Shown here piece by piece: positions 875 through 29,650 of a stretch of 64,000 bases of DNA. The notes under the pieces were generated by a model. That model saw nothing but the letters and a program-made list of their open reading frames with translations. It was not told the DNA's origin and did not search any database. A program made the position numbers and the translations under genes. The DNA lies in sequence record NC_048748.1; one strand, written 5' to 3'. Each line of letters opens with the position of its first letter. Position 1 is the first letter of the stretch. This DNA comes from Escherichia phage vB_EcoS_HdH2.

Positions 875-951
875 TGGCGCGACCGATGGGATTTGAACCC
901 ACATTCCCTCCCGTGACAGGGGAGTACCATTACCAAGCCAGCCCCGGTCGC
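875..951 (-). tRNA. tRNA-Asp (anticodon GUC)
   Basis: Reverse complement GCGACCG...CGGTCGC-G-CCA; anticodon loop CTGTCAC; T-loop GGTTCAAATCC; CCA encoded. Confidence 0.75.
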
Positions 952-960
952 ATAATTTAT

Positions 961-1146
961 TTACTCAGCTTTGAGTTTTTCAATAGCTGCATTAAGTTCT
1001 TTAAGAAACTCTTTTCGTACATTAAGACGATTGAGACTTACTAGTATATCATGTTTAAGTTCTTCGATGTATTTCTTCTCAACTTCAATATTGTTGATAG
1101 TGCTATCACGATGAACTTCTAGCTGCGCAATCACATTCTTGGACAT
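961..1146 (-). CDS. hypothetical protein (61 aa, coiled-coil-like)
   Basis: ORF between two tRNA genes; charged helical composition. Confidence 0.4.
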   Translation of the reverse strand: MSKNVIAQLEVHRDSTINNIEVEKKYIEELKHDILVSLNRLNVRKEFLKELNAAIEKLKAE

Positions 1147-1248
1147 GCTTGTTTCCTCAGTTATTAATGAAAATGGTATCTGTGGCTGAATTCGATGTCA
1201 GCAATGATAGCTGGTTGGCTACCGGTTTACTTAACTCTACACAGAATT

Positions 1249-1331
1249 TGGCGGGCCGTGTAGGATTCGAACCTACGTTGTCTTTCGACATGGATTAACA
1301 GTCCACCGCCAAACCGCTTGGCTAACGACCC
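1249..1331 (-). tRNA. tRNA with Asn anticodon GUU but a 13-nt variable arm
   Basis: Acceptor GGGTCGT/ACGGCCC, anticodon stem GTGGA/TCCAT with loop CTGTTAA, variable arm GTC-GAAA-GAC, T-arm GTAGG-TTCGAAT-CCTAC, G-CCA 3' end. Confidence 0.6.
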
Positions 1332-1483
1332 TAAATTTATATTGCTGACTAGGATTTTCACCTAGACGGAGTTAGCACCGTAGCGTGTAGCGGCATACCT
1401 CTCCAAACCGTGCCTCATCTTTCAATTACGGAGACAGTGTTCCTACGCGTGCCTGAATTGATTTAACAATTCTTTCAGCAAAT

Positions 1484-1559
1484 TGGACGACCGCATGAGA
1501 TTTGAACTCACATAAAAAGGATTTGCAATCCTTCGCCTAAGCCATTCAGCCAACGGTCG
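1484..1559 (-). tRNA. tRNA-Cys (anticodon GCA)
   Basis: Acceptor CGACCGT/GCGGTCG, anticodon loop TTGCAAA, T-loop GTTCAAATC, T-CCA end. Confidence 0.7.
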
Positions 1560-1595
1560 GTTTATCTTGTTCTGTTATGTTGCTTCTCCAGTTCA

Positions 1596-1650
1596 ATTTA
1601 TGTAATTATTATACAGAACTTTCGGAAACTAAGCAACTACATTTTTTAAG
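1596..1650 (-). promoter_or_regulatory. T5-type early promoter upstream of tRNA-Cys
   Basis: Reverse complement has TTGCTT -35 and TGTATAATAAT extended -10 followed by CATAAATTG box. Confidence 0.55.
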
Positions 1651-1901
1651 AATTTGATGCCTTTCTTTTTCTTCTTATATTTCCACGTTAATGGATTCTG
1701 TCGATTATGAACGCTTGAGATCTTCGTCTCGTCAAAGTTCTTCAATATCATGTAATCACAAGATAATTGTTCTAGTGGAATGTGATCACCGTCAAAAGCA
1801 TATACATAAGGCTGTTGACTAGCACGATAATGATAGACTTTATTAATTCTACGTTTCAGCGACTTATCCGCGCAGTAAATAAAGAAGTTTTCAGGATGCA
1901 T
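1629..1901 (-). CDS. hypothetical protein (90 aa)
   Basis: ORF in early-region orientation; no recognisable domain. Confidence 0.45.
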   Translation of the reverse strand: MHPENFFIYCADKSLKRRINKVYHYRASQQPYVYAFDGDHIPLEQLSCDYMILKNFDETKISSVHNRQNPLTWKYKKKKKGIKFLKNVVA

Positions 1902-1918
1902 CAGCAGCTCCTTTAATT

Positions 1919-1993
1919 TGGTGCACCCTGTTCGTATCGAACGAACCTCTCAAGCTCTTCAGGCAAGCGCTAATCCATCTCAGCTAAAGGTGC
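1919..1993 (-). tRNA. tRNA-Phe-like (anticodon GAA) with two U-U mismatches in the anticodon stem
   Basis: Acceptor GCACCTT/AGGGTGC, D-stem GCTG/TAGC, anticodon loop CTGAAGA, T-arm GTTCG-TTCGATA-CGAAC, A-CCA end; not in the ORF track. Confidence 0.55.
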
Positions 1994-1998
1994 AAATT

Positions 1999-2078
1999 TT
2001 GGCAAACCTACTAGGACTCGAACCTAGACCGTACGGTTTTGGAGACCGACATGCTGTCCAGTAACACTCTAGGAATGC
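1999..2078 (-). tRNA. tRNA-like (possible Trp, anticodon CCA) with non-canonical acceptor stem
   Basis: Canonical T-arm CTAGG-TTCGAGT-CCTAG and G-CCA end, candidate anticodon loop CTCCAAA, but no clean 7-bp acceptor pairing could be drawn. Confidence 0.3.
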
Positions 2079-2084
2079 AGAAAT

Positions 2085-2161
2085 TGGCGTCCTGTGCGGG
2101 GATCGAACCCGCAAATCCTACCTTGAAAGGGTAGTGACTTTACCAGTTTGTCTAACAGGAC
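2085..2161 (-). tRNA. tRNA-Glu (anticodon UUC)
   Basis: Acceptor GTCCTGT/ACAGGAC, anticodon stem-loop CTACC-CTTTCAA-GGTAG, T-loop GGTTCGATCC, G-CCA end. Confidence 0.75.
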
Positions 2162-2168
2162 TTAAATT

Positions 2169-2259
2169 TGGTGTTGGATGATGGAGTCGAACCACCCGAG
2201 ACCCTTCCGAGTCGGCAGATTTACAGTCTGCTTCGCTACCTCTACGATACTAATCCAAC
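2169..2259 (-). tRNA. tRNA-Tyr (anticodon GUA), type II with long variable arm
   Basis: Acceptor GTTGGAT/ATCCAAC, anticodon stem-loop GCAGA-CTGTAAA-TCTGC, long variable arm, T-loop GGTTCGACTCC, A-CCA end. Confidence 0.7.
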
Positions 2260-2314
2260 ATATTTAAAAGTATTCAAATACTAGTTTAAACACTTTTAAA
2301 TATGTTTCCGAATT

Positions 2315-2360
2315 AGATAACTATTATACCAAGTTTTAAGGCACTGAGCAAGTCAAATTT
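2315..2360 (-). promoter_or_regulatory. early promoter upstream of tRNA-Tyr, overlapping a 12-bp-stem hairpin
   Basis: Reverse complement has TTGACTTGCT -35 and TGGTATAATAG -10; inverted repeat GCACTGAGCAAG...CTTGCTCAGTGC at about 2341-2380 just after the stop of the 2388-2663 gene. Confidence 0.5.
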
Positions 2361-2387
2361 TAAAGAACTTGCTCAGTGCTGTATTAG

Positions 2388-2663
2388 TTAGTCGAACTTA
2401 GGAGTGACAGTTAAGGAGAACGGAAGTTCGAAAACTTCTTCGCCCTCATTACTAACGGTAACTACACGACCTTTAAGTTCAGACATTAAAATATCAATAT
2501 CAGCTTTTGCATCTGGAGCCATGCCAGCTTCAATACATTTAGCTTTAACTTCCGGTAAAAGCTCTACGTTATAGAGATAGAGCCACTCAATCTCACCTTC
2601 CCAGTCTTCCCAGGATTTGCAGATTGCACTTTCAATACCAGTTGCTACAACACGATTTTGCAT
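2388..2663 (-). CDS. hypothetical protein (91 aa)
   Basis: ORF with GAAGGAG RBS and upstream early promoter (2684-2730). Confidence 0.55.
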   Translation of the reverse strand: MQNRVVATGIESAICKSWEDWEGEIEWLYLYNVELLPEVKAKCIEAGMAPDAKADIDILMSELKGRVVTVSNEGEEVFELPFSLTVTPKFD

Positions 2664-2753
2664 TCGTTAACTCCTTCATCAATTTATACAACTATTATAT
2701 CAGAAATTTAAAGCAAAAGGCAAGTACATTTTTAAAAATTCTGTTTGGAGGAG

Positions 2754-2960
2754 CTAAACTCCAGATTCTTCAGCTAAGTCTAGACTAATAAGAGTTATAG
2801 CCATAATTGCTGCACCGTGTTCTTTTTCTCCGGTGTTTTTAGCAGAGTCTATAATATCCTTAATCTGTTCGTAATAACTTTTTACTTCTTGTTCAATGCC
2901 TGCCTCGGCTATCATGCCTTTAGCCATGAATCGTTGCATGGTAATTTCAGGATTAGCCAT
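2754..2960 (-). CDS. hypothetical protein (68 aa)
   Basis: ORF in operon orientation; start overlaps the stop of an upstream small ORF (ATGGCTAA). Confidence 0.45.
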   Translation of the reverse strand: MANPEITMQRFMAKGMIAEAGIEQEVKSYYEQIKDIIDSAKNTGEKEHGAAIMAITLISLDLAEESGV

Positions 2961-3120
2961 GTTGTTTCTCCAGTTTCATTTTTAATAGTTTACAGAGGAA
3001 ATCAACGTCTTCATCTGTGCCTAAGTCTCTATCCTCAAGGGTCGCCTTGAAGTTTTTCGTCAATTCCATGAGGATGACTTCCCTAGAACGACGTGTTAGC
3101 GGAGGTGGATGTCTATACAT
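2957..3120 (-). CDS. small hypothetical protein (about 54 aa), below the ORF-track threshold
   Basis: ATG at about 3118-3120 just downstream of the tRNA at 3136-3212; stop overlaps the next start. Confidence 0.35.
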
Positions 3121-3135
3121 CTTATTTCCTTAATT

Positions 3136-3212
3136 TGGTAGGGGTGGTGGGATTCGAACCCACAAAACCTGAATTTTAAGTCCAGTACCTATGCCAATTC
3201 GATTACACCCCC
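3136..3212 (-). tRNA. tRNA with anticodon UAA (Leu by anticodon) but a short 5-nt variable arm
   Basis: Acceptor GGGGGTG/CACCCCT, anticodon stem-loop CTGGA-CTTAAAA-TTCAG, T-arm GTGGG-TTCGAAT-CCCAC, A-CCA end. Confidence 0.55.
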
Positions 3213-3428
3213 GTGTAATTTAGTCAATTACTTTTGAAGCTTCAAGGTAGTCGATATAGTGTACGTTTTCTACCGTAATCATATAATCTGCCACTTTATC
3301 CATAGCTTGGGCTTCAGAGGTAGCTCTGGCTAACCTATATCCTTTTTTATATTCATCAGGGTATTCTCTATCTTGAATAAACACAACATAAACTATGTAT
3401 AATTCCACTTGTAATCCCCTAATTAAGT

Positions 3429-3506
3429 TGGTGGCTCCCCGAGGATTCGAACCTACGTACCTTCCGGTTATGAGCCGGGTGCTCATACCATATGAGCTTG
3501 AGAACC
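3429..3506 (-). tRNA. tRNA-Met/Ile-like (anticodon CAU) with imperfect T-stem
   Basis: Acceptor GGTTCTC/GGGAGCC, D-stem GCTC/GAGC, anticodon loop CTCATAA, T-loop TTCGAAT with two mismatches at the base of the T-stem, A-CCA end. Confidence 0.45.
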
Positions 3507-3512
3507 AGAATT

Positions 3513-3601
3513 TGGCGGAAGAAGTGGGAATCGAACCCACAAGGCTATATTTCAAACCGACAGATTAGCAATCTGCTGCAATACCGTTATGCTATTCTTC
3601 C
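3513..3601 (-). tRNA. tRNA-Ser (anticodon GCU), type II
   Basis: Acceptor GGAAGAA/TTCTTCC, anticodon stem-loop GCAGA-TTGCTAA-TCTGT, long variable arm, T-loop GGTTCGATTCC, G-CCA end; early promoter directly upstream (3603-3660). Confidence 0.7.
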
Positions 3602-3621
3602 GAATTTATAAATATATTATA

Positions 3622-4140
3622 TTAGAAATTTAACTTCATAGCAAGAAAATTTTTCAAGTTTTCGGTAGACATCTCATCCACATCTATAGGAGAAACAAAC
3701 CCATTTAATTGTCTAGCAAACTTTTCGCCAGCAGGATCATTATCCCCAACAGCTACCAATTTAAAAGGTAGTAATTTCAATTGCTTTAACAACGCTTTTC
3801 CGGGGGAAGAACCCAACATTGCTAGGGCAGGATAACCAGCGTTATGTAACGCAACTGCCTTAAATACAGATTCAGCAATCAATACTACTTTTTCATCTCC
3901 ATTGAGAGTTTCTAGTCCCCATACACACTGTGTAGTAGAATAAGTAAAATATTTAGCCTCAAAGGGACACTTACCATGACCTTTTGGAGCAGAAGGATTA
4001 TAAGTCTGATAGCCTCTCAACATCCCAGAGAAGTCATACAATGGGACTGTTAGCCAGCCTTCTGGGCTTAACCAGCAATGATATTTATCTGTATCAAACC
4101 CTCTAGATAAGAGATGTTCTGTTAGTTCATCAACAGTCAT
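3622..4140 (-). CDS. Toprim-domain protein (primase/topoisomerase-like fold)
   Basis: Acidic motif LIAESVFKAVAL ... VAVGDNDPAGEKFA typical of Toprim; start moved to the internal ATG (MTVDELTE) that sits behind RBS GAGAGG and the promoter at 4155-4205. Confidence 0.45.
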   Translation of the reverse strand: MTVDELTEHLLSRGFDTDKYHCWLSPEGWLTVPLYDFSGMLRGYQTYNPSAPKGHGKCPFEAKYFTYSTTQCVWGLETLNGDEKVVLIAESVFKAVALHNAGYPALAMLGSSPGKALLKQLKLLPFKLVAVGDNDPAGEKFARQLNGFVSPIDVDEMSTENLKNFLAMKLNF

Positions 4141-4313
4141 ATTAGATTCCTCTCTCAAATTTATAAATATATTATACAGAGAATTTAGCATTCAAGCAAT
4201 TGAATTTTTTAACTTTTTAGAGGAAAATCATAGGATGCTTAAGGGTAGCAGATAAGTGGTGAGTACCGAAATTTGTGACCCCACTAAAAATCTGGGGGCA
4301 ATTTTTAAAGACC

Positions 4314-4345
4314 CCTTGACATTTTCGCCGGGGTAGTGTAAAGTA
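4314..4345 (+). promoter_or_regulatory. consensus-like sigma70 promoter (TTGACA, 17-nt spacer, TAAAGT) driving the plus-strand cassette
   Basis: -35 TTGACA at 4316-4321 and -10 TAAAGT at 4339-4344; shares the 15-mer TTGACATTTTCGCCG with the promoter at 33382. Confidence 0.6.
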
Positions 4346-4406
4346 TATGTTATGGATGAGTGATCAAAGAGACACACATTTTCTATATACTAGGAGGTGT
4401 CAAAAA

Positions 4407-5396
4407 ATGACAGAAGAAGTAGCTAAGAGTCCTGAAACCGTCGCTAGCGTAGCAGCAGAACTGCATCGTCACGAGGAATCAGATAAGAAAAAGTGGGAGA
4501 AAGTCAAAGCCTACGAAGAAGAACATCGTGAACACGATGATAAAGATGAAGAAGATGACGATGATGAACATTGTCATAAATATGGAAAACATAAAATGCA
4601 AGAACCAGTAAACGTATTTACTAACGGCTTCCCTGGCATGGGTGCATTCCCAGCTAACGCAAGTGCTTTCGGTGGAGAAGGTATGGGCCTATTCGGAGCT
4701 ATCCTAATCGGTGCTCTATTAACAGGCGGATTTGGTGGTTTCGGTGGATTCGGTGGACGTGGTGTAGTTAGTGATGGTACCGCAGTTGATGCAGTACTTC
4801 AGAACCAAGATACCGCTAGTATTCTAGCAGCTATTAACACTACTCGTACAGAAGCTAATCAGGGTACTGGAGCTGTTTTAAGCGCAGTTAACAATGGTTT
4901 TAGCCAGACATCCCAAAACCAGAGCCGTGATACTCAGTCTGTACTAACTACGATCTATGGTACAGGTGCTAATCTGTCTAATCAGATCTGCCAGGAAACT
5001 CGCAACGTTATTCAGGGTCAGTTCGATCTTTCTCGCCAGATTGATCAATCTTTCGCAGCTAACCAGATAGCTCGTGCACAAGATAAGTTTGATTCTGCAC
5101 AGATCGCTTTCCAGCAGACTTTACAAACTAATAACCAGTTTGCCGCTGTTCAGGCTCAGATGTGTGCTAACCAGAACTCTCTGGAACGTCAGATCGCTGA
5201 ATGTTGCTGTGAACTTCAGACTGCGATCGCTGGTGTAACTACTGCGCGTATCCAGGATGAGTTAGACGCATGTCGCCTACGTGAAGCAATCGCTGCGGGT
5301 AGCGGTGCTAACGGTCAGGTAATTAATCAAATCGCTTTAAGTCTTGGTGCTATCACTCAGACTCTGGCTGGTCTGCAGGCTAAACTGCCGGCTTAA
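4407..5396 (+). CDS. hypothetical membrane-anchored protein: acidic His-rich N-terminus, Gly-rich TM helix, Q/N-rich C-terminal domain with CCC motif
   Basis: ORF with AGGAGGTG RBS before ATG 4407; hydrophobic segment GLFGAILIGALLTGGFGGFGGFGG; codon usage resembles highly expressed genes; opposite strand to its neighbours. Confidence 0.55.
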   Translation: MTEEVAKSPETVASVAAELHRHEESDKKKWEKVKAYEEEHREHDDKDEEDDDDEHCHKYGKHKMQEPVNVFTNGFPGMGAFPANASAFGGEGMGLFGAILIGALLTGGFGGFGGFGGRGVVSDGTAVDAVLQNQDTASILAAINTTRTEANQGTGAVLSAVNNGFSQTSQNQSRDTQSVLTTIYGTGANLSNQICQETRNVIQGQFDLSRQIDQSFAANQIARAQDKFDSAQIAFQQTLQTNNQFAAVQAQMCANQNSLERQIAECCCELQTAIAGVTTARIQDELDACRLREAIAAGSGANGQVINQIALSLGAITQTLAGLQAKLPA

Positions 5397-5417
5397 TATT
5401 AAGGGGAGGAGCCCATT

Positions 5418-5837
5418 ATGAGTAAATATGGTTTTGTAAATAACGGACTTAATCAAAGTATGGGCTCCCAGCAGCCCATTCCGGGTCTGGATAATCCCTA
5501 CTTACAACAGTTGCAACAGCGTTTAGCAGAAGCGCAACAGATGCAGCAACAACTCCAGCAAAACCCTGGAAGTGTGAGTCCTATGCAAATGATGCAGCAA
5601 ATGAGTGGGCAGTCGCAAATGCCTCAACAAATGCAGCAACAGATGCCGCAGCAGCAGCAAGTTCAGCAACAAACCCATCAACCGCAGGTTTCTGCGGAAG
5701 GACAGGCAGTACTAGCCCTTTTCGAAGACTTCGCAAAGACAGAGGATGGGAAGCAGCTTGTATCACTTATGGGTAAGTTTAATAGCTTCTGCCAAAGCCA
5801 AATTGCAAAAGCTCAAAATAGCGGTGATAACTCCTAA
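5418..5837 (+). CDS. hypothetical glutamine-rich low-complexity protein (139 aa)
   Basis: ORF with GGGGAGGAG RBS; extremely Q-rich (QQMQQQLQQ, MPQQMQQQMPQQQQVQQQ). Confidence 0.5.
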   Translation: MSKYGFVNNGLNQSMGSQQPIPGLDNPYLQQLQQRLAEAQQMQQQLQQNPGSVSPMQMMQQMSGQSQMPQQMQQQMPQQQQVQQQTHQPQVSAEGQAVLALFEDFAKTEDGKQLVSLMGKFNSFCQSQIAKAQNSGDNS

Positions 5838-5846
5838 GGAGGAATT

Positions 5847-6041
5847 ATGTGTTGCAGAAAATCTGTTTCGTGCTGCCCAATGCCTGTAGCACGTTGTTGC
5901 TCTCCAGCAATGTTTACGCAAATACCGGCGTTCAATCCGTTTGCCTTTAAGCCTACTCTTATCCTGCCCCCTAGAGTAGATTTTCAGTCAAGATTGGCCT
6001 CCCGTATGGGTGGTTGCTGTAACAAGAGTATATGGTTCTAA
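5847..6041 (+). CDS. hypothetical Cys-rich small protein (64 aa) with four CC doublets
   Basis: ORF with AGGAGG RBS directly after the previous gene; CC at residues 2-3, 9-10, 17-18 and 57-58; followed by terminators. Confidence 0.4.
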   Translation: MCCRKSVSCCPMPVARCCSPAMFTQIPAFNPFAFKPTLILPPRVDFQSRLASRMGGCCNKSIWF

Positions 6042-6056
6042 AGAACCAAACAATAA

Positions 6057-6090
6057 AGCCCCTAGTCGAAAGACTTAGGGGCTTTTTCTT
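6057..6090 (+). terminator. rho-independent terminator ending the plus-strand cassette
   Basis: Hairpin AGCCCCTAGTC-GAAA-GACTTAGGGGCT followed by TTTTT. Confidence 0.65.
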
Positions 6091-6107
6091 TTGCCTTAAA
6101 ATACAGA

Positions 6108-6140
6108 AAAGCCCGCGCTCTCGGAGAAAACGCGGGCTTA
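6108..6140 (-). terminator. rho-independent terminator after the SPFH gene (hairpin shared with the plus-strand cassette end)
   Basis: Inverted repeat AAGCCCGCG...CGCGGGCTT; on the minus strand it is followed by TTTTCTGTATTTT. Confidence 0.55.
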
Positions 6141-6162
6141 GTTCGAAGATTACGTGTAACTA

Positions 6163-7110
6163 TTACTTGTTACGCATATCCATGATCATTTGACCATCAT
6201 AGCCAGTGCCAACTACAGTCTGAGGTACACCACCTTGATATTTCTGAGCACGAATCATCTCAACTTCCAGTTGTTTCCAACGAATCATCTCAGGAGTAAT
6301 GGTACGTTGTAGTGCGGCGTTAGCTTCAGCTTCTTTCTTAGCTGCGTACAGTTTAGCATCTGCGTCACGTTCATTAGCAATAGCTTGGTTATTGCGAGCT
6401 TCACGATCTGCTTCTGCTTGTTTAACTTTTTGCTGTGCTTCCTGTTCAACGCGGGCAAGTTCAGCTTTCGCAGCGTTAACTTGCTCTTCACGAACTTTGG
6501 TATTCTGTACCTGTTCCATGATTACCGGTGGCAAAGTAATATCCTGAAGAAACACCTGCTTAACTGTGTAACCATATGGGCGTGCATACTCTTCAACTTC
6601 CTGTTGAATTGCAGTTTGCAATTGAGCCTGAATTTTAGCATCAAACAAATCTTGTGCTTTAGGTACAGACTTACCAAACTCACGAATAGTAGACAGTAAT
6701 TTTTCAGTTACATATTTGTCTAACGCTTGATCCTGAGTACCTGCATTAATACGGTTAATCGGTGCCTTAGAACCATCAAACTGCAACATAACAGTCAGGT
6801 CAACAGTGGATTTAAACTTATCCTGACTAGGGACCTGAAGTTTATCTAATTTTAGAGCAATATCTTTAGTACTAAAAGTATCGAAAGAAGCAAAAGGATT
6901 TACAATATGAAAGCCGGGTAATACTGGGCTAGGGTCAACCTTACCCAGGAAGGTCTGGGTTTTAACAGTACCGTCTTGAACAACAGTGTAAGAGTTAAGA
7001 GCCAGAACTAAACCTACCAAACCAACTGCAGCCCCAATACCCCAACGTTTGATATTACGCATTAATTTTTGCTCATAAGTCAGTTCTTTAGTGTTTTTAG
7101 TAGCAAACAT
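6163..7110 (-). CDS. SPFH/band-7 family membrane protein (HflC/stomatin-like)
   Basis: N-terminal TM helix (IGAAVGLVGLVLAL), SPFH-like core (YTVVQDGTVKTQTFLGKV), charged Ala/Glu/Gln-rich coiled-coil tail; RBS AAAGGAAAT; directly downstream of tRNA-Arg. Confidence 0.6.
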   Translation of the reverse strand: MFATKNTKELTYEQKLMRNIKRWGIGAAVGLVGLVLALNSYTVVQDGTVKTQTFLGKVDPSPVLPGFHIVNPFASFDTFSTKDIALKLDKLQVPSQDKFKSTVDLTVMLQFDGSKAPINRINAGTQDQALDKYVTEKLLSTIREFGKSVPKAQDLFDAKIQAQLQTAIQQEVEEYARPYGYTVKQVFLQDITLPPVIMEQVQNTKVREEQVNAAKAELARVEQEAQQKVKQAEADREARNNQAIANERDADAKLYAAKKEAEANAALQRTITPEMIRWKQLEVEMIRAQKYQGGVPQTVVGTGYDGQMIMDMRNK

Positions 7111-7144
7111 ATATTTCCTTTATTTTAGTTACAGTTAATAAAAT

Positions 7145-7219
7145 TGGCCGAGGTGACAGGATTCGAACCTGCATAAAGGAATTTAGAAGACTCCTGCCTC
7201 TCCCTTAGACTACACCCCG
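7145..7219 (-). tRNA. tRNA-Arg (anticodon UCU)
   Basis: Acceptor CGGGGTG/CACCTCG, anticodon stem-loop GGAGT-CTTCTAA-ATTCC, T-arm GCAGG-TTCGAAT-CCTGT, G-CCA end. Confidence 0.7.
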
Positions 7220-24744: not shown

Positions 24745-24917
24745 TTAAATCTGTGTATACACACCCTGATGATATATTTGTATGGGCGGACGGTAGTTGG
24801 TGCTATCGCTGTGAGTTGTGGGAAATGGACTATAAATCCGATGACTATGGTGTTATATATGTGGATACGGTTGAGTATGATACGTTCTTAGAAAGGAACA
24901 AAAATGGAAATAAGTAA
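24735..24917 (+). CDS. hypothetical protein (60 aa)
   Basis: Short ORF overlapping neighbours. Confidence 0.35.
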   Translation: MSIIKSVYTHPDDIFVWADGSWCYRCELWEMDYKSDDYGVIYVDTVEYDTFLERNKNGNK

Positions 24918-25410
24918 TACTCCAATTATTTTTCTAGACATTGATGGGGTGCTCAATTCGAGCATCTCCCACCATCATGCACCTGATGATGAAAAGATTT
25001 TCTTTGGAAGTGACTGGGTTTTCAAACCGCTTCTCAAGGCTTTTCAGGACTTTATTCGTCCTTCTCCGATAATGATTGTTGGAGTATCCTCATGGTTCTC
25101 TGTCAGGAATGAGATGGAGAACGTTCAGATTATGACCGGATTAGGTCTTATCGATCGTTTTCTTGGTACAACGGATTTTACTGGTGGTGGGCTATCTAGG
25201 GGTAATTCTGTTCTTCGCTTCGTTGAAAAGCATAAGCTCAAACATTGGTGTGTGCTGGATGATGCCGGTGCTATGATGTATCAGTATCCAACGGTTATAG
25301 TCAATGGTAGAACAGGAATAAATCTTCAGGATTTAAAAGCTGTTAGCTATATGCTAGAATTTAGCCCAGATCTTGAAATGTGTAAATCCTTACAACAATT
25401 TAAGGTGTAA
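24904..25410 (+). CDS. HAD-superfamily hydrolase-like protein
   Basis: HAD motif I FLDIDGVLN near the N-terminus and acidic motif VLDDAG. Confidence 0.45.
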   Translation: MEISNTPIIFLDIDGVLNSSISHHHAPDDEKIFFGSDWVFKPLLKAFQDFIRPSPIMIVGVSSWFSVRNEMENVQIMTGLGLIDRFLGTTDFTGGGLSRGNSVLRFVEKHKLKHWCVLDDAGAMMYQYPTVIVNGRTGINLQDLKAVSYMLEFSPDLEMCKSLQQFKV

Positions 25411-25412
25411 AT

Positions 25413-25841
25413 ATGTTCAATAATGTATTCTCTAAAGAAGCTAACCCAATTTTGGTTAACTTTTGGCGTACTCTCCCGGCTAGCCTGTATAATGAGGCTA
25501 TTAACTCCTTGAAAATATGGTGTGAGAATAACGAAATCTCCTTTGCTTTTAAAGATGATATTGATGAGGCCCCCTGTATTGGTTTAATTGTTCAGGTAGA
25601 GGAGGGTCTTGAAGAAATTGTCGGCTGGAAAGAGTTAGATGAAATGGGCTTAGTTTTTGCGTTAAACTATAAGCTGTTTATGCCTGCTAAGCATCGCCTC
25701 GTTGTTAACTATAAAACCAGTGAATCTCCTGGCTTTCAAGTTAATGAACATTACGGTTGGTCTTACTCACCGGAAGAAGTAAATGAGGGGATTCAGAAAC
25801 TTCGACGTTTCGGGTATATGATCCCAGGTTTAACCGCCTAA
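25413..25841 (+). CDS. hypothetical protein, paralog 1 of a tandem pair
   Basis: Shares DDPCIG, GW(K/N)ELxxMGLxxALN and C-terminal GYxxPGL motifs with the next ORF. Confidence 0.5.
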   Translation: MFNNVFSKEANPILVNFWRTLPASLYNEAINSLKIWCENNEISFAFKDDIDEAPCIGLIVQVEEGLEEIVGWKELDEMGLVFALNYKLFMPAKHRLVVNYKTSESPGFQVNEHYGWSYSPEEVNEGIQKLRRFGYMIPGLTA

Positions 25842-25850
25842 GGGGGCACA

Positions 25851-26243
25851 ATGGAACAAGTATATTGGCGTCAGATTGATCCTAGTTTGGTGAAGCGTGC
25901 GGAGAAGCTGCTACAACGTTGGTTGGTGGTAAGACAAGCCTCCTTCACTTTTCCGGAGCAGCAAACGGATGATCCATGCATTGGCGTTTTCCTGTCTGGA
26001 TATGCCGGGGAGTGGGAATTGGATTGGAATGAATTGTCTGCTATGGGCTTGATTGTTGCCCTAAACTTCTCTATATTCCATCCACGTGGTTTGGCCATAT
26101 GTCGTGTGCCTGATGACGGTTGTTCGCCCCATCTTTTACAGGTGGAAGATGATATTTGGGAGTACACTCCAGGTATTCTCAAAGAAGCTAAAGAACAATT
26201 AAATCGTGTTGGGATCTATGTTCCGGGGCTAAATGATGAATGA
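25851..26243 (+). CDS. hypothetical protein, paralog 2 of a tandem pair
   Basis: Same motif set as 25413-25841. Confidence 0.5.
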   Translation: MEQVYWRQIDPSLVKRAEKLLQRWLVVRQASFTFPEQQTDDPCIGVFLSGYAGEWELDWNELSAMGLIVALNFSIFHPRGLAICRVPDDGCSPHLLQVEDDIWEYTPGILKEAKEQLNRVGIYVPGLNDE

Positions 26244-26265
26244 GTTTTATTAGCTGAACTCTGAT

Positions 26266-26292
26266 TACCGAGTCATTTTGGCTCGGTTTTAT
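26266..26292 (+). terminator. rho-independent terminator
   Basis: Hairpin CCGAG-TCATTTTGG-CTCGG followed by TTTT. Confidence 0.5.
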
Positions 26293-26334
26293 CCGTACTC
26301 AAGACCAGTGATAGCATCTTTGGAAAAAATTTAC

Positions 26335-26363
26335 TTGCATGATGCTCAAAATCTTGATATAAT
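26335..26363 (+). promoter_or_regulatory. sigma70 promoter (TTGCAT, 17 nt, TATAAT) with long leader to the 26861 gene
   Basis: TTGCAT at 26335-26340 and TATAAT at 26358-26363, followed by about 490 nt of non-coding sequence. Confidence 0.5.
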
Positions 26364-26860
26364 ATTTATATTGAATCGAGAGACATTAGTAAAAATTAAT
26401 TTTGCTAATTTTTCTTGTTTACAATCCGCGATACGGAACAGTTAGGCTGCCCCATTAAGGGTTGTTTTAACTATTACTAGTGTTTATATTGCATTAGTTA
26501 ATCTTCAATTAAGTGATCTGTGTACCCTGAATTCGGAAAGGTAAATCCAAACCGTGCATATTTAGCTCGTTATATAGGCAGAGTTTTATATGGGGGTGCG
26601 AACGAAAAGAGCAGCGAATGGCGGCACGTACAGTAGTCACCTACCAATAGGATAGTGAGGACAAATAGAATCGGCTTAGCGGCCAATGACCTAGGTTCTA
26701 TTCTGTATATGAGCGAAGAGAGCACAGCACTGAGATATGATAACTTATTCATATTGTTTGATGATAATTGATGTTTACGTAAATAGTAGTAATAGTTGTT
26801 CTATTCTTTCTGAATAGTCCTAAAGAAAAGATTTCGATTAACCAACACAGGAGTATTGTT

Positions 26861-29650
26861 GTGTTTTCTATCCTCCAAGGTCACGCTGGGTTTTCTCGTG
26901 ATTTAGCAACAGGTATTTGGCGAGAAATCAAAGCGGAAGATTATACCTTTGCCAAGCGATTCTCGAAAGAGCATCCAGAAGGTAAACCAGCTTCTATGCC
27001 CTTCAAATTTGATGTAATAGAAGAGCACGACCCTCAAAGCCTTGCCGAAATGTTACCACTTATGAGACGTTTAACGTCTGACCCTCATATCGTTGCGGTA
27101 CGAGGTCGGTGTCTTGCACCTAAAAATAACGTGCGACGTAAGAAAGGTAACTTTAATGTATCTAATCCTAGTAATATTATTGCTATGGACGTGGATGGTA
27201 TCCTAGATACCGGTGGGTATGACAAGTTTAACCTTGTTGGTATGGCCCGCCACATTATTAAGATGTTGAATAGTATTAGTGAGGACATGTTCCCTCTTGA
27301 TGCAGGCTTTATAGCTCATGCATCGTCTTCGGCTGGGCTAAAACCAGGTATCCGAATGCACTTAATGCTAGAATCTAACGTCAAGGTAACTCAGGGTCAG
27401 TTAAAGTTCTTATTTACATCTATCAACGATAGTAGTAAGCAAAAATTTGGTTTTGATATTGCCGACTTAGCTTATTATTCATCTGTCCAGCTCCACTATT
27501 TTGCCGACCCCTTATTTAGTGATGGTATTGTTGATCCGTTTAAAGCGGAGAGTAAGCCACGTCTGGTGTATGTTAAAGGTTCGAAAGTAAATTTGCCCAA
27601 TAATCTGGTTGACTATGAAACAACTAGAGGGGAGTTTAAGGAAGAGTTTTATTCTTTACTTGATCAAATTAAAGGCAAAAAGATCGCGTCTGATAAAGTA
27701 GAAGAAACCATCAGCGAATTGGAAGAAGCTGAGGATGGGGTGTACCTGCGTATTATCCCCAAACTCTACCATAGAGCATTAGAGGATGGTGTTGATTTTG
27801 CATGGCTAGAACGTGAGATTAAACCCGCTTTATCTGAATATATTGCAACTAAAGATAACAGTCGTAATATTCAAGATTACTTTAATAACGGTCGTAAGCA
27901 GGCTCTCAAAGCGTTTGTTAATAATTCTAAACGTGAGATTCCATTAAATCTGAAAGGTGTTCCGCTCAAGAAATTAGAAGTGGATTCTCCACCAGAAGTT
28001 CCGTACCTGAAGATTAACATTGTGCCTCCAAAAGGCCATATAACATTTGTTAAAGCAAGTCTTGGTACTGGTAAGACTACGGCAGTAACTAAATGGCTGG
28101 ACGCAGGTGTTCTTCCTGGCAACTTTTTAGCAGTTACAAATACTAGAGCACTGGTATCTTCAAACGCTAAGAAATTTAGCGCAGGACAATATGATAAGTC
28201 TGTAGATATGCTCAACTTTAAACGTGGAGCTATTGATCGTATGTCCACGACTATTCACTCTTTGCATAAGTTCAAAAGTTTTATTGGTCAAATAGATACC
28301 ATTTTTATTGATGAATGTGATGCTGTAATGAATGATCTATTATTCGCACCTGTTGTTAAGCAACGTCGCGAATGTATTCAAGTTCTACGTGACATCCTCA
28401 TGACAGCTAAAACTGTAATTCTATCAGATGGTGATATTAGTGCCGAAACTATTGAAGCATATGGTTCTCTAATTGATTTTGATAAACCAGTAGCATTTTA
28501 TAATCATCACCGTAAGATGCTGTCAAAAGCTCATGCTTATGAGTTCCCTGATGAATCCAGTATTTGGGTTGCACTTCAGACTTCCCTGGAGATGGGTGAG
28601 AAATCTATCCTAGTATCTGACTGTGGGCCAGATGAACTGAATGAGAAGGGCATGGCGTTGCGTCGTAATACGGGTGCGTTAGTTAAGGAAATCCACTCAA
28701 ACTCTACGTCTGATGTAGATATTAGACGTATTCTGGATTACACAACTAATGAACTAATTGATCAACAAATTGATTGCTTATTATGTAGTCCATCCGTAAC
28801 GAGTGGTGTTGACTTTAACTATTTTGATAACGTATTTGTTATTACTAGAACTAGTAATCAAGCGCCAAACATGCGCTTTCAAGCAATCAGGCGCGACCGT
28901 GGTGCTCAGAATATCTATTATTTTATTGATAAATCCACTAGTGGATTCTCCGCAGGTTCTGAACAGTATAATATTGATGAAGGTTGGCTGGAGTTAGCAC
29001 AGCAATTATACGCACGTCGCAGGGAGCTGGAATCTAGGAACTATACTAGTACTTTACGTTATTACTTGCTTGATCAAGGTGCAACTATTGATATTTTCAG
29101 CGAAAGCTGGGGAACTATTGAAGGTGCTGGTAAAGAATATACAGAAGAGCGAATCAAAGCCATTCTGCATTCAACTCCGGATTATTGTGCTCCACGTCAT
29201 GCGGATGCGTATGAAGCTAAACTACTTCTTGTTCGCTATTATCATCTTGAGTCTATTAAAGATGTAACAGTTGAGCATGTTGAACAATATATCAAAGATA
29301 AACCGAATGATCGAGCCGCCTTCTTCCATAAGATGCACGAGATGTTTTGGGAAGATATTAAGAAGTGTTCAAATGTAACCATTAAACCATTCATAGAAGC
29401 TCTGAAAGGTAAGAAAAAGGACTTCTTCCTTAAAACAGGTCAAAGTGCTAACCCAAAATATGCTAGAATGTATCTTGGTATGATGGGTATTGGTAAGGAT
29501 ATGAACACTGAAAATATCGTAGACTGGTATAGAACCTATTGTAAAATCGAGTGTATGCCAATCCCTTATAAGTTCATGACTGACGAGGAAAGACATATGC
29601 ACGATGAAGCAATGGCAGAGCTAGGTGCTAGAAATGACAGTGAAGAATAA
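26861..29650 (+). CDS. large P-loop helicase-like protein (929 aa), possible replication-origin-binding helicase
   Basis: Walker A ASLGTGKTTA, Walker B IFIDECD; GTG start behind ACAGGAG RBS. Confidence 0.5.
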   Translation: MFSILQGHAGFSRDLATGIWREIKAEDYTFAKRFSKEHPEGKPASMPFKFDVIEEHDPQSLAEMLPLMRRLTSDPHIVAVRGRCLAPKNNVRRKKGNFNVSNPSNIIAMDVDGILDTGGYDKFNLVGMARHIIKMLNSISEDMFPLDAGFIAHASSSAGLKPGIRMHLMLESNVKVTQGQLKFLFTSINDSSKQKFGFDIADLAYYSSVQLHYFADPLFSDGIVDPFKAESKPRLVYVKGSKVNLPNNLVDYETTRGEFKEEFYSLLDQIKGKKIASDKVEETISELEEAEDGVYLRIIPKLYHRALEDGVDFAWLEREIKPALSEYIATKDNSRNIQDYFNNGRKQALKAFVNNSKREIPLNLKGVPLKKLEVDSPPEVPYLKINIVPPKGHITFVKASLGTGKTTAVTKWLDAGVLPGNFLAVTNTRALVSSNAKKFSAGQYDKSVDMLNFKRGAIDRMSTTIHSLHKFKSFIGQIDTIFIDECDAVMNDLLFAPVVKQRRECIQVLRDILMTAKTVILSDGDISAETIEAYGSLIDFDKPVAFYNHHRKMLSKAHAYEFPDESSIWVALQTSLEMGEKSILVSDCGPDELNEKGMALRRNTGALVKEIHSNSTSDVDIRRILDYTTNELIDQQIDCLLCSPSVTSGVDFNYFDNVFVITRTSNQAPNMRFQAIRRDRGAQNIYYFIDKSTSGFSAGSEQYNIDEGWLELAQQLYARRRELESRNYTSTLRYYLLDQGATIDIFSESWGTIEGAGKEYTEERIKAILHSTPDYCAPRHADAYEAKLLLVRYYHLESIKDVTVEHVEQYIKDKPNDRAAFFHKMHEMFWEDIKKCSNVTIKPFIEALKGKKKDFFLKTGQSANPKYARMYLGMMGIGKDMNTENIVDWYRTYCKIECMPIPYKFMTDEERHMHDEAMAELGARNDSEE

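What the first reader, a model, noticed from the sequence alone, without database searches (positions are those of the whole stretch)
26293..26860. Long non-coding leader with AATAG/CTATT iteron-like repeats upstream of the large helicase gene
About 490 nt between a sigma70 promoter (26335-26363) and the GTG start of the 929-aa helicase-like gene contain no credible ORF. They include a relatively GC-rich core (about 26560-26700) and a cluster of at least eight AATAG or CTATT pentamers with an inverted pair (AATAGAA...TTCTATT) around 26670-26840. This could be a protein-binding array, possibly a replication origin or regulatory site next to a putative origin-binding helicase, or a structured leader RNA.
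Basis: inference. Interest (0 to 1): 0.45.

Follow-up and report, generated by a model that had tools for sequence, protein, structure and literature searches.

The report
Large structured RNA before T5 helicase
The "iteron-like" AATAG/CTATT repeats are the paired strands of an unannotated, roughly 450-base folded RNA that T5-like phages transcribe just ahead of their origin-binding helicase gene, so this is a conserved RNA element of unknown function, not a row of DNA binding sites.

Summary
The window is a T5-like phage (97% identical to T5 here). The finding covers the gap between a terminator/early promoter and the D2 (origin-binding-protein-like helicase) gene. The long non-coding leader, its GC-richer core and the inverted pair are real. 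The pentamer density is not above chance: 176 of 1000 shuffles do as well for some pentamer. There is no family of three or more direct repeats. Seven of the eight pentamers lie in stems: three helices (P3, Pg, P12) each take one CTATT and one AATAG, and a fourth (P3b) takes one. In relatives these stems change sequence but keep pairing. Two covariance models built here recover the element upstream of D2 in Escherichia/Salmonella, Klebsiella, Pectobacterium and Erwinia/Pantoea phages, and weakly in Providencia and Proteus phages. In those alignments 91-96% of cells are paired, against 35-52% when partners are slid, and 38 of 40 and 16 of 23 pairs show compensatory changes. G-U outnumbers A-C about 8:1, which points to the + strand. 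No ORF is conserved, no Rfam family matches, and GenBank records leave the region blank. Verdict: a conserved, multi-domain structured RNA (window ~26370-26865). One loop, CUUAGCGG, is invariant, and a small hairpin pairs the D2 start codon. Its function is not established; the candidates are a cis leader, an RNP or trans-acting RNA, and a replication-initiation RNA.

The parts
26268..26290 (+). Intrinsic terminator of the upstream operon (CCGAG...CTCGG followed by TTTT), just after the stop codon of the DUF7415 gene at 25851-26243
   Evidence: Read from the sequence. The homologous position is annotated as a terminator in T5 NC_005859 and in Erwinia phage KEY.
26322..26363 (+). Early sigma-70 promoter: A-tract 26322-26331, -35 TTGCAT 26335-26340, -10 TATAAT 26358-26363. 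The inferred start is about 26370.
   Evidence: Sequence. Annotated as a promoter in T5 records. An equivalent strong promoter opens the non-coding region in every lineage examined. The start site is inferred, not mapped.
26377..26417 (+). H1, the 5' hairpin right after the start site (26377-26383/26411-26417 and 26385-26394/26400-26409)
   Evidence: MFE and alifold predictions. A long hairpin of different sequence sits at the same place in the Klebsiella, Pectobacterium, Erwinia-like and Providencia lineages.
26421..26465 (+). P2, a composite hairpin holding the most sequence-conserved motif, GAUACGGAACAGUUAGGCUGCCCCAU (26430-26455)
   Evidence: Invariant between the two T5-group cassette types. 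Compensatory changes: CAGU/GCUG to CGGU/GCCG in L088; GG/CC to AG/CU in Klebsiella phages (read by eye from the sequences).
26469..26487 (+). 5' strand of the long-range closing helix P3/P3b. It holds CTATT at 26471.
   Evidence: the repeat finder I1: 18 nt, 89% complementary to 26780-26797. Covaries: AACUAUUAC/GUAAUAGUU, AACUGUUAC/GUAACAGUU, GCUGCUACU/AGUAGUGGC, GGUUAUUAUAUAAC/GUUAUAUAAUAACC.
26491..26508 (+). P4 5' strands, an AT-rich extension of the closing stem that pairs with 26757-26774. Predicted only.
   Evidence: Alifold within the T5 group and the repeat finder I2. Weakest part of the model; my hand coordinates for two short sub-helices were off by one.
26512..26523 (+). Pc 5' strand (AGUG..CUGUGU), the inner closing helix of the core. 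It pairs with 26722-26731.
   Evidence: Complementary in all 8 lineages with different sequences: CUGUG/CACAG, CUGCG/CGCAG, CUACA/UGUAG, CUGUA/UACAG, CUAGAA/UUCUAG.
26524..26613 (+). 5' core: Pd (26524-26528/26593-26597), Pd2 (26557-26561/26588-26592 and 26564-26568/26581-26585) and Pe
   Evidence: Hand-aligned helices, checked. In the type-2, Erwinia, Pantoea and Pectobacterium lineages model R3 gives 96.2% paired cells against 37-52% when slid, and 16 of 23 pairs with compensatory changes. R3 did not match a T5 type-1b relative (L013). The window itself was not searched with R3, so homology of this sub-domain in the window rests on position and hand alignment.
26625..26711 (+). 3' core three-way junction: Ph (26625-26633/26703-26711), Pf (26636-26662), and Pg (26664-26672/26694-26702, which holds AATAG 26664 and CTATT 26698)
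   Evidence: Model R1 matches window 26609-26757 at E 0.02-0.04. The iterated model R2 matches T5 at 4.5e-16 and 12 other relatives at 1e-12 to 1e-34. Pair counts: 91.4% paired against 35-43% when slid; 38 of 40 pairs compensatory; 0 of 500 shuffles as high.
26673..26684 (+). Mini-hairpin GGC-UUAGCG-GCC inside the Pg loop. CUUAGCGG (26675-26682) is the only stretch invariant in all 17 aligned sequences.
   Evidence: Alignment A11. The stem covaries (GGC/GCC, GAC/GUC, GCC/GGU).
26722..26731 (+). Pc 3' strand (GCACAG CACU)
26734..26755 (+). P11 hairpin (GAUAUGA/UCAUAUU)
   Evidence: Covaries within type 1 (AUAUGA/UCAUAU to GUAUGA/UCAUAC), within type 2 (GUGG/CCAC to GGGG/CCCC) and across lineages.
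26757..26797 (+). 3' strands of P4, P3b and P3. They hold AATAG at 26782 and 26791.
26801..26817 (+). P12 hairpin CUAUUC-UUUCU-GAAUAG, holding CTATT 26801 and AATAG 26813. No U-tract follows, so it is not a terminator.
   Evidence: A hairpin of different sequence sits at this place in DU_PP_V, the Erwinia-like lineage and Klebsiella phages.
26844..26865 (+). Small hairpin AACAC/GUGUU. The Shine-Dalgarno AGGAG (26849-26853) is in its loop and the D2 start codon GUG (26861-26863) is in its 3' strand.
   Evidence: The base opposite the first start-codon letter tracks it: C with GUG (27 sequences), U with AUG (4), A with UUG (3), U with GUG as a wobble (3). The Pectobacterium, Providencia and Proteus lineages do not follow the rule.
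26861..29650 (+). D2 gene, 929 aa: the bipolar SF2 helicase with a herpesvirus-OBP-like core. It is the downstream gene always linked to the RNA.
   Evidence: Wong et al. 2013 (PMC3632103).

Best explanation
Shown. The region is the template for a large, multi-domain structured RNA on the + strand (window ~26370-26865; about 450-490 nt in T5-group phages). It lies between an early sigma-70 promoter and the start codon of the D2 helicase gene, with no terminator in between. Its parts are: a 5' hairpin (H1); a conserved composite hairpin (P2); a ~330-nt central domain closed by the long-range helices P3 and Pc, with two sub-domains; an invariant CUUAGCGG hairpin loop; a 3' hairpin (P12); and a 5-bp hairpin that holds the Shine-Dalgarno in its loop and pairs the D2 start codon. 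Seven of the eight AATAG/CTATT pentamers lie in stems: three complementary pairs in P3, Pg and P12, plus one in P3b. Selection acts on base pairing, not on the repeat sequence. Inferred. The RNA is made in cis with D2 as its 5' leader. The role I think most likely is to couple to D2 expression. A protein, possibly D2 itself or another early protein, would recognise the invariant loop. The fold together with the start-codon hairpin and the weak GUG/UUG start would then set how much D2 is translated from a very strongly transcribed message, and the 5' hairpins would stabilise the transcript. My confidence: about 0.9 that this is a selected RNA structure; about 0.35-0.4 that its main job is cis control of D2.
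For: Covariation. The 3' core has 91.4% paired cells against 35-43% when partners are slid, 38 of 40 pairs with changes on both sides, and 0 of 500 shuffles as high (an earlier alignment). The 5' core has 96.2% against 37-52%, and 16 of 23 pairs. Erwinia phage KEY and Pantoea phage AAS21 were not used to build any model, and they match at 1e-17 to 4e-20. Hand-checked helices P3, Pc, Pd, Pd2, Pe and P12 are complementary in every lineage with different sequences. Strand. G-U against A-C cells are 96:12 and 14:3. This fits the promoter orientation. Non-coding. No ORF is conserved, and the region is blank in T5 RefSeq and other records. Synteny. The element sits immediately upstream of D2 on the same strand, down to 55% D2 identity. 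Leader. No terminator lies between promoter and D2 in the window or in Providencia phage PR1. The start-codon hairpin tracks GUG, AUG and UUG starts. The non-AUG start is conserved in most lineages.
Against: A 450-nt element with 15 or more helices is far larger than any known translational operator or riboswitch. In Proteus Stubb-like phages a second perfect consensus promoter lies 37 nt before D2, between the RNA and the gene, so D2 can be made there without the leader. The covariation evidence for the start-codon hairpin is a single pair, and the Pectobacterium, Providencia and Proteus lineages do not follow it. No transcript ends, processing sites or binding partner are known. The pair counts come from alignments fitted to the model's structure, and several helices were aligned by hand. 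The T5 type-1 5' core is not recognised by model R3 (tested on L013). Matches in Providencia and Proteus phages are weak (E 0.02-0.2).
Confidence: 0.45

Rival explanations
1. A stand-alone functional RNA. The transcript, or a piece processed from it, works in trans or as part of an RNA-protein particle. It could be a cofactor or scaffold for D2 or another early protein, or a decoy against a host defence. Its place upstream of D2 would then reflect co-expression rather than regulation.
For: Size and multi-domain architecture are in the range of ribozymes and RNP RNAs. The invariant 8-nt loop amid otherwise free sequence change suggests a specific partner. A very strong early promoter is joined to a weak, hairpin-occluded GUG/UUG start, which implies far more RNA than D2 protein. 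Stubb-like phages have a separate consensus promoter for D2. The non-coding region grows to 600-1300 nt in the Providencia, Proteus, Vibrio and Aeromonas lineages. The central domain is swapped as a cassette, with breakpoints at helix P3.
Against: No terminator or mapped 3' end separates the RNA from D2 in the T5, Klebsiella or Providencia lineages. Strict synteny with one gene is more typical of cis elements. No complementarity to a target and no partner was identified.
Confidence: 0.28
2. A replication-initiation RNA. Transcription from the early promoter makes a folded transcript that forms an R-loop or primer, as with ColE1 RNA II or the T4 oriF/oriG transcripts, or otherwise marks an origin next to the gene of the origin-binding-type helicase.
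For: It is adjacent to the only OBP-like gene in every lineage. A strong promoter is followed by ~490 nt of untranslated RNA. The region lies at 48.5-48.9% of the 121,750-bp T5 genome. T5 origins have never been mapped in sequence; the literature reports multiple internal origins by electron microscopy (cited in PMC3632103, and PMC10055335). ColE1 RNA II also needs a conserved fold to prime (established knowledge).
Against: The cumulative GC-skew minimum of the window lies at ~19-20 kb, where gene orientation switches, not here. No antisense promoter or iteron array was found. The recombitron data for T5 pointed to dominant unidirectional replication from one genome end (PMC10055335). A more distant D2 homologue (L075/L091) has no such region upstream. 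Nothing here tests for an RNA-DNA hybrid.
Confidence: 0.17
3. One reading: a double-stranded DNA array of AATAG/CTATT iteron-like sites bound by D2 or another protein.
For: For this pentamer the local count is the highest in the window. It lies next to the OBP-like gene. An exact 10-mer, GTTCTATTCT, occurs twice, 103 bp apart.
Against: The density is not significant once the choice of pentamer is allowed for (176 of 1000 shuffles). No direct-repeat family has more than 2 copies, and the orientations are mixed. The pentamers are not conserved: type-1b and type-2 T5-group phages and other genera replace them with unrelated but still complementary sequences. The G-U excess shows selection on one strand of RNA.
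Confidence: 0.04
4. A folded single-stranded DNA signal on the + strand, such as a primosome-assembly or lagging-strand initiation site, rather than an RNA.
For: Covariation alone does not tell RNA from ssDNA of the same strand.
Against: About 15% of paired cells are G-U, which is weak as G-T in DNA. The element begins exactly at a strong promoter's start site and ends at a ribosome-binding site. At 450 nt it far exceeds known ssi signals (established knowledge).
Confidence: 0.03

Closest known systems
Autoregulated phage mRNA leaders and operators (T4 gene 32 pseudoknot leader, T4 gene 43 operator, RegA sites)
   Same: An untranslated 5' region of a replication-gene mRNA, with structure at or near the ribosome-binding site. 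It is plausibly bound by a protein to set translation.
   Different: Those operators span tens of nucleotides. This element is ~450 nt with 15 or more helices and two covarying sub-domains. No binding protein is known. One lineage has a separate promoter for the gene.
Transcript-primed origins: ColE1 RNA II, T4 oriF/oriG, T7 primary origin
   Same: A strong promoter followed by several hundred nucleotides of untranslated, folded transcript in a replication-gene neighbourhood.
   Different: No evidence here for an R-loop, an RNase H site, an antisense RNA I-type promoter or a mapped initiation point. The GC skew gives no signal here.
Large ornate phage-associated RNAs of unknown function (GOLLD, ROOL)
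   Same: Large (over 400 nt), multi-helix, phage-borne, function unknown, found by comparative analysis.
   Different: No match to these or to any of the 4227 Rfam models. It is not next to tRNA genes (the nearest is ~19 kb away). It is strictly syntenic with one protein gene and restricted, as far as seen, to Demerecviridae.
Iteron origins (lambda ori, P1 oriR, theta plasmids)
   Same: Short repeated words near an initiator-type gene.
   Different: No phased direct repeats, no sequence conservation of the words, mixed orientation, and the words pair with each other in RNA helices.
Non-coding RNAs encoded directly upstream of their partner protein (retron msr-msd, IS110 bridge RNA, DRT ncRNAs)
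   Same: A structured RNA immediately 5' of a nucleic-acid enzyme gene, on the same strand, co-transcribed.
   Different: This is an analogy only. D2 is an SF2 helicase with an uncharacterised N-terminal domain. No reverse transcriptase or recombinase is involved, and no sequence or Rfam similarity exists.

Membership tests
Iteron-type origin repeat array | Three or more direct repeats, usually 17-22 bp, in one orientation with regular spacing | tested here: not met
   The repeat finder gives only 2-copy families, and the pentamers occur in both orientations.
Iteron-type origin repeat array | Repeat density above chance | tested here: not met
   176 of 1000 dinucleotide shuffles and 27 of 212 window tiles reach the same maximum for some pentamer.
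Iteron-type origin repeat array | Repeat sequence conserved among relatives that share the initiator | tested here: not met
   The Pg and P3 words change while staying complementary.
Iteron-type origin repeat array | Binding by the initiator protein | not testable with these tools
   Needs a footprint or EMSA with D2.
Conserved structured RNA (general criterion) | Base pairs kept through compensatory changes in independent lineages, above controls | tested here: met
   91-96% of cells are paired against 35-52% when slid; 38 of 40 and 16 of 23 pairs have changes on both sides; shuffles never reach the observed percentage paired or covariation score. Caveat: the alignments were fitted to the model.
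Conserved structured RNA (general criterion) | Strand specificity (G-U tolerated, A-C not) | tested here: met
   G-U:A-C = 96:12 and 14:3.
Conserved structured RNA (general criterion) | The region is transcribed | not testable with these tools
   Only a promoter is annotated or inferred. No transcriptome data for T5 were found.
Any Rfam 15 family (riboswitches, group I/II introns, RNase P, tmRNA, 6S, GOLLD, ROOL, HEARO and others) | Covariance-model match | tested here: not met
   No relevant match at E up to 10 in the window, or up to 1 in 12 relatives. ARAGORN finds no tRNA or tmRNA here.
Cis-regulatory 5' leader of an mRNA | Lies between the promoter and the regulated ORF on the same strand, with no terminator or second promoter | tested here: inconclusive
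   Met in the window and in Providencia phage PR1. Not met in Stubb-like Proteus phages, which have a 12/12 consensus promoter 37 nt before D2.
Cis-regulatory 5' leader of an mRNA | Structure involves the ribosome-binding site or start codon | tested here: met
   The AACAN/NUGUU hairpin covaries with GUG, AUG and UUG starts in 37 of 49 sequences. Other lineages do not conform.
Cis-regulatory 5' leader of an mRNA | A ligand or protein changes expression through the leader | not testable with these tools
   Needs reporter fusions and binding assays.
Transcript-primed origin (ColE1 RNA II / T4 oriF type) | Promoter followed by an untranslated folded transcript | tested here: met
Transcript-primed origin (ColE1 RNA II / T4 oriF type) | Persistent RNA-DNA hybrid and DNA synthesis starting at its 3' end | not testable with these tools
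   Needs DRIP-seq or nascent-strand mapping. The GC skew is uninformative here.
Transcript-primed origin (ColE1 RNA II / T4 oriF type) | Antisense regulator promoter (ColE1 type only) | tested here: not met
   No promoter-like site on the - strand in 25800-27200.
Group I intron | Interrupts a gene; P3-P8 core with a G-binding site | tested here: not met
   No Rfam Intron_gpI match. The flanks are a terminator/promoter and a ribosome-binding site, not exons.

The most novel reading that the evidence does not exclude
The element is a new class of large phage RNA that works with the D2 helicase in starting T5 DNA replication. It could be an RNA that defines or primes the long-sought T5 origin, or an RNA cofactor of D2. 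The invariant CUUAGCGG loop would be the protein contact, and the exchangeable central domain would be a specificity module.
Probability: 0.2. Interest if true: 0.85.

Novelty: new variant of a known kind. Interest (0 to 1): 0.65.

Why it matters
T5 is a classic model phage, and its relatives are widely isolated for biocontrol and therapy. Yet this 450-500-nt stretch is blank in their GenBank records. A covariation-supported RNA of this size is rare; known ones are mostly ribozymes, RNP scaffolds or unexplained ornate RNAs. This one is tied to a single replication gene across several genera. That makes its function directly testable in an easy genetic system. It may also bear on two open questions about T5: where and how replication starts, and how the D2 helicase is controlled. 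It also serves as a caution, because short repeated words in AT-rich intergenic DNA can simply be the two strands of RNA helices.

Tried and rejected
1. Rfam scans of the window and of 12 relatives found nothing relevant. 2. ARAGORN found no tRNA or tmRNA in the region. 3. Coding potential: no ORF is conserved. 4. Resemblances to RNase P CR-IV/V and to the group I S element that I noticed by eye were dropped, because the Rfam models give no match. 5. GC skew as an origin marker: the minimum lies ~7 kb upstream, at the switch of gene orientation. 6. The pattern GAGAMGTG-N55-75-CTTAGCGG, scanned against IMG/VR and GTDB genomes, was too unspecific. Model R2 then accepted only the 10 T5-like contigs among the 240 loci. 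7. Model R2 with filters off found nothing in Serratia phage Kamaji or in Vibrio and Aeromonas phages, so homology there is not established, although their upstream regions are also long, non-coding and apparently structured. 8. A possible loop-loop pairing of UUAGCG with UGCUAA (26403-26408) is not conserved outside the T5 and Pectobacterium lineages (read by eye) and was dropped. 9. The exact 10-mer repeat GTTCTATTCT (Pg 3' strand and P12 5' strand) could give an alternative fold, but it exists only in T5 type 1, so it is probably not a conserved switch. 10. Literature searches for T5 origin mapping, a T5 transcriptome, or a described RNA here found nothing specific. The catalogue of Fremin et al. 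2023 (PMC10690425) could not be checked, because its supplements are not held. 11. The N-terminal 385 aa of D2 has no Pfam or PDB sequence match.
Full report
What the region is. The window is a T5-like phage. The 617 bases from 26244 to 26860 are 97-98% identical to Escherichia phage T5 and its close relatives, and 537 phage records hold a match. In T5 the stretch lies between a hypothetical gene (T5p105, here 25851-26243, a DUF7415 protein) and gene D2 (here 26861-29650, 929 aa). D2 is the bipolar SF2 helicase with a herpesvirus origin-binding-protein-like core (PMC3632103). T5 RefSeq annotates only a terminator, a promoter and D2 here. The 470 bases in between (NC_005859 59074-59544) are blank. 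Most other records are also blank under the match, or carry a spurious small "hypothetical protein".

Check of the observation. The promoter is there: -35 TTGCAT 26335-26340, a 17-nt spacer, -10 TATAAT 26358-26363, and an upstream A-tract. The ~490-nt gap to the GTG start is real. No credible ORF exists, since the few 30-60-aa ORFs differ in place and length in every relative. The GC-richer core is real: 0.46 against 0.31-0.33 in the flanks. The inverted pair AATAGAA/TTCTATT is at 26664-26670 and 26696-26702. The pentamer count was overstated for the quoted interval. There are 8 copies in 26293-26860, 7 in 26646-26817, and 5 in 26670-26840. Seven copies in 172 nt is the maximum of the 64-kb window for this pentamer, but the pentamer was chosen after the fact. 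If any pentamer class is allowed, 176 of 1000 dinucleotide shuffles of the region reach seven, and so do 27 of 212 tiles of the window. The repeat finder reports no direct-repeat family with more than two copies. Its best hit is an inverted repeat, 26469-26486 with 26780-26797.

What relatives show. Among close relatives (D2 89-100% identical) the flanks, window 26245-26484 and 26788-26860, stay 87-99% identical. The centre, 26485-26787, comes in two versions of almost the same length that BLAST cannot align. When aligned, the two versions share islands such as GGCTTAGCGGCC. Around the islands the sequence changes on both sides of potential stems. More distant Demerecviridae all have a strong promoter followed by a long gap with no annotated gene, or only tiny doubtful ORFs, before the D2 homologue. 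These are Klebsiella phages, Pectobacterium My1 and DU_PP_V, an Erwinia KEY / Pantoea AAS21-like lineage, Providencia PR1/PSTCR5, Proteus Stubb-like phages, Serratia Kamaji, and Vibrio and Aeromonas phages. The gap runs from about 320 nt to more than 1000 nt.

Covariance models. I derived a structure for the 3' half of the central domain from the type-2 sequences and built model R1 from nine near-identical seeds. R1 found the same element at the syntenic place, on the + strand, in four other lineages: the Erwinia-like contig L088 at about 1e-15, DU_PP_V at 1e-10, My1 at 5e-9 and Klebsiella phages at 1e-8. It also matched window 26609-26757 full-length at E 0.02-0.04. The iterated model R2 matches T5 at 4.5e-16, type 1b at 1.7e-12, and Klebsiella phages at 5e-22. 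KEY and AAS21 were never used in model building, and they match at 1.4e-18 and 4e-20. Providencia phages match weakly (E 0.02-0.08) and Stubb-like Proteus phages more weakly (E 0.18), both at the expected spot. On the 17-sequence alignment, 91.4% of cells form standard pairs, against 35-43% when the 3' partner is slid by 1-3 columns. Thirty-eight of 40 pairs show changes on both sides, and none of 500 shuffles reaches the observed values. A third model, R3, covers the 5' half of the core. It gives 96.2% against 37-52%, and 16 of 23 pairs with compensatory changes, across type-2, Erwinia, Pantoea and Pectobacterium phages. These alignments are fitted to the models, so they lean towards the structure. 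The independent lineages and the slid controls still make chance very unlikely.

Helices outside the models. I checked these by hand and then by script. In every lineage the two strands are complementary, lie in the same order, and differ in sequence between lineages. Examples follow.
- P3: AACUAUUACUA/UAGUAAUAGUU, AACUGUUAC/GUAACAGUU, GCUGCUACU/AGUAGUGGC, GGUUAUUAUAUAAC/GUUAUAUAAUAACC.
- Pc: CUGUG/CACAG, CUGCG/CGCAG, CUACA/UGUAG, CUGUA/UACAG, CUAGAA/UUCUAG.

Strand. G-U pairs outnumber A-C juxtapositions 96:12 and 14:3. The structure is therefore selected on the + strand, the strand read from the promoter.

Anatomy in the window (coordinates in the parts list). The inferred start is about 26370. 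In order along the RNA:
- H1: 26377-26417.
- P2: 26421-26465, holding the motif GAUACGGAACAGUUAGGCUGCCCCAU, which is invariant between the two T5-group cassette types.
- Closing helix P3/P3b: 26469-26487 with 26779-26797.
- P4: an AT-rich extension, predicted only.
- Inner closing helix Pc: 26512-26523 with 26722-26731.
- 5' core (Pd, Pd2, Pe): 26524-26613.
- 3' core: a three-way junction of Ph, Pf and Pg, 26625-26711. The Pg loop carries the mini-hairpin GGC-UUAGCG-GCC. CUUAGCGG (26675-26682) is the only stretch invariant in all 17 aligned sequences.
- P11: 26734-26755.
- P12: 26801-26817.
- A 5-bp hairpin, 26844-26848 with 26861-26865, holds the Shine-Dalgarno in its loop and pairs the GUG start codon.
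The single-sequence minimum-energy fold shares 95 of the 145 comparative pairs. Its z-score against shuffles is -2.7.

The pentamers explained. CTATT 26471 pairs with AATAG 26791 in P3. AATAG 26782 lies in P3b. AATAG 26664 pairs with CTATT 26698 in Pg. CTATT 26801 pairs with AATAG 26813 in P12. Only AATAG 26646 sits at a loop, in Pf. Each helix therefore contributes one word and its complement. In type-1b phages Pg is AUCAGAA/UUCUGAU. In type 2 it is CAAAUC/GAUUUG and P3 is CUGUU/AACAG. So the words are not conserved, but the pairing is.

How it may work. What is shown: a conserved fold on the + strand, starting at a strong early promoter, in strict synteny with D2, with no terminator before D2 in the window or in Providencia PR1. 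In addition, the base opposite the first letter of the start codon tracks it: C with GUG in 27 sequences, U with AUG in 4, A with UUG in 3, and a U-G wobble in 3. From this I infer that the RNA is made as the 5' part of the D2 message. My leading mechanism is cis control of D2 output. A protein would read the invariant loop, and the fold together with the weak, occluded start would limit translation. I give that only about 0.35-0.4. Several points argue that the RNA is a product in its own right:
- its size;
- the very strong promoter joined to a poor start codon;
- the second perfect promoter just before D2 in Stubb-like phages;
- the growth of the region in other genera;
- the cassette-like exchange of the whole central domain, with breakpoints at helix P3.
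That product might be a partner of D2 or another trans-acting RNA (about 0.28), or a replication-initiation RNA (about 0.17). The origin idea gains from the position next to the OBP-type gene, at 48.5-48.9% of the T5 genome. T5 origins are still unmapped.

Comparison with known things and novelty. No Rfam 15 family matches in the window or in 12 relatives. No tRNA or tmRNA is predicted here. The literature searches found no description of an RNA at this place. The element resembles autoregulated phage leaders in position, ColE1 or T4-type primer transcripts in layout, and GOLLD/ROOL in size. It meets the defining tests of none of them (see the membership table). I rate it a new RNA family within a known general kind, a large structured phage RNA or leader. 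One caveat applies: bulk catalogues of predicted viral RNA structures (PMC10690425) could not be checked.

Limits.
- The start site, the 3' end and transcription itself are inferred.
- Several helices rest on hand alignment.
- P4 and the T5 type-1 version of the 5' core are the weakest parts.
- E-values from the short calibration are rough.
- Homology beyond the enterobacterial-host lineages is not shown. Vibrio Thalassavirus-like phages do have a conserved, apparently structured ~700-nt region with some compensatory changes, and Aeromonas phage TS3 carries three UUAGCGG words in its 1.3-kb gap.

Noticed in passing
window 26485-26787 versus L016-L026, L032, L081-L086: The whole central RNA domain exists as two BLAST-unalignable versions of nearly equal length among phages whose flanks and D2 gene are about 90% or more identical. 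The breakpoints fall at the inner ends of closing helix P3/P3b, as if the domain were exchanged as a cassette. Type 1 (T5 proper, this window) is the outlier; other genera resemble type 2.
   Followed up: partly
L012, L017, L032 (about 90-100 nt extra between promoter and P2): Three relatives have a leader about 100 nt longer, with the promoter-proximal part matching twice. This looks like a tandem duplication of the promoter/H1 module.
   Followed up: no
L069/L070 (Proteus Stubb-like) 805-833 and 1535-1564: Two perfect 12/12 sigma-70 consensus promoters are present. One is at the start of a ~760-nt non-coding region and one is 37 nt before D2.
   Followed up: partly
L039 (Aeromonas phage TS3) 197, 443, 1018; L036/L077-L079 (Vibrio phages) upstream of OBP: TS3 has no annotated gene for 1.3 kb before its OBP gene. 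That stretch carries three UUAGCGG words, one of them in a perfect hairpin loop (CCCGAAAA-GCUUAGCGG-UUUUUCGGG). Vibrio phages have a conserved ~700-nt non-coding region with predicted helices and some compensatory changes. It shares GGAAGU(A/G)GUACGC with TS3. These could be very distant homologues or analogues of the RNA.
   Followed up: partly
window 26695-26704 and 26798-26807: The exact 10-mer GTTCTATTCT occurs twice, as the 3' strand of Pg and the 5' strand of P12. This would allow an alternative pairing of the Pg 5' strand with P12. It is present only in T5 type 1, so it is probably not a conserved switch.
   Followed up: partly
window 26649-26664 and 26859-26874: A 16-nt, 75% complementary inverted repeat links the Pf 3' side (AGGAUAG...) to the first codons of D2 (CUAUCCU) (I4). 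In type 2 a different segment (AGGAUU in Pg) is complementary to the changed codons (AAUCCU). It could be a long-range contact with the translation start, or it could be chance.
   Followed up: no
window 26861-28015 (D2 residues 1-385): The N-terminal 385 aa of D2 has no Pfam or PDB sequence match. Columns invariant across genera include AMDVDG (D110, D112) and HASSSAG...R..H (H153-H167). From memory this resembles the DxD and sGxGxH motifs of archaeo-eukaryotic primases. That is a lead only and was not tested.
   Followed up: partly
window 24904-25410, 25413-25841, 25851-26243: The genes just upstream encode a HAD domain of the 'Swiss Army Knife RNA repair' type (PF18143) and two paralogous DUF7415 proteins. 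A Sir2-like gene lies further upstream in T5.
   Followed up: no
L002 (Salmonella phage Shivani) 1516-1968: An HNH homing endonuclease gene is inserted between the DUF7415 gene and the RNA's promoter. The promoter-proximal flank also varies in other relatives, such as L007, L011 and L024, which carry a different promoter.
   Followed up: no
window 875-7219 (- strand) and ~19-20 kb: Ten tRNA genes lie on the - strand. The cumulative GC skew turns at ~19-20 kb and again at ~48 kb. The turn at ~19-20 kb probably marks a switch of transcription direction (not checked against the ORFs there) rather than a replication origin.
   Followed up: partly
L075 / L091 (D2 homologue at 44% identity): A more distant phage lineage has a D2 homologue preceded by only a short promoter region and a divergent gene, with no long non-coding region. 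D2-type proteins therefore exist without the RNA next to them.
   Followed up: no
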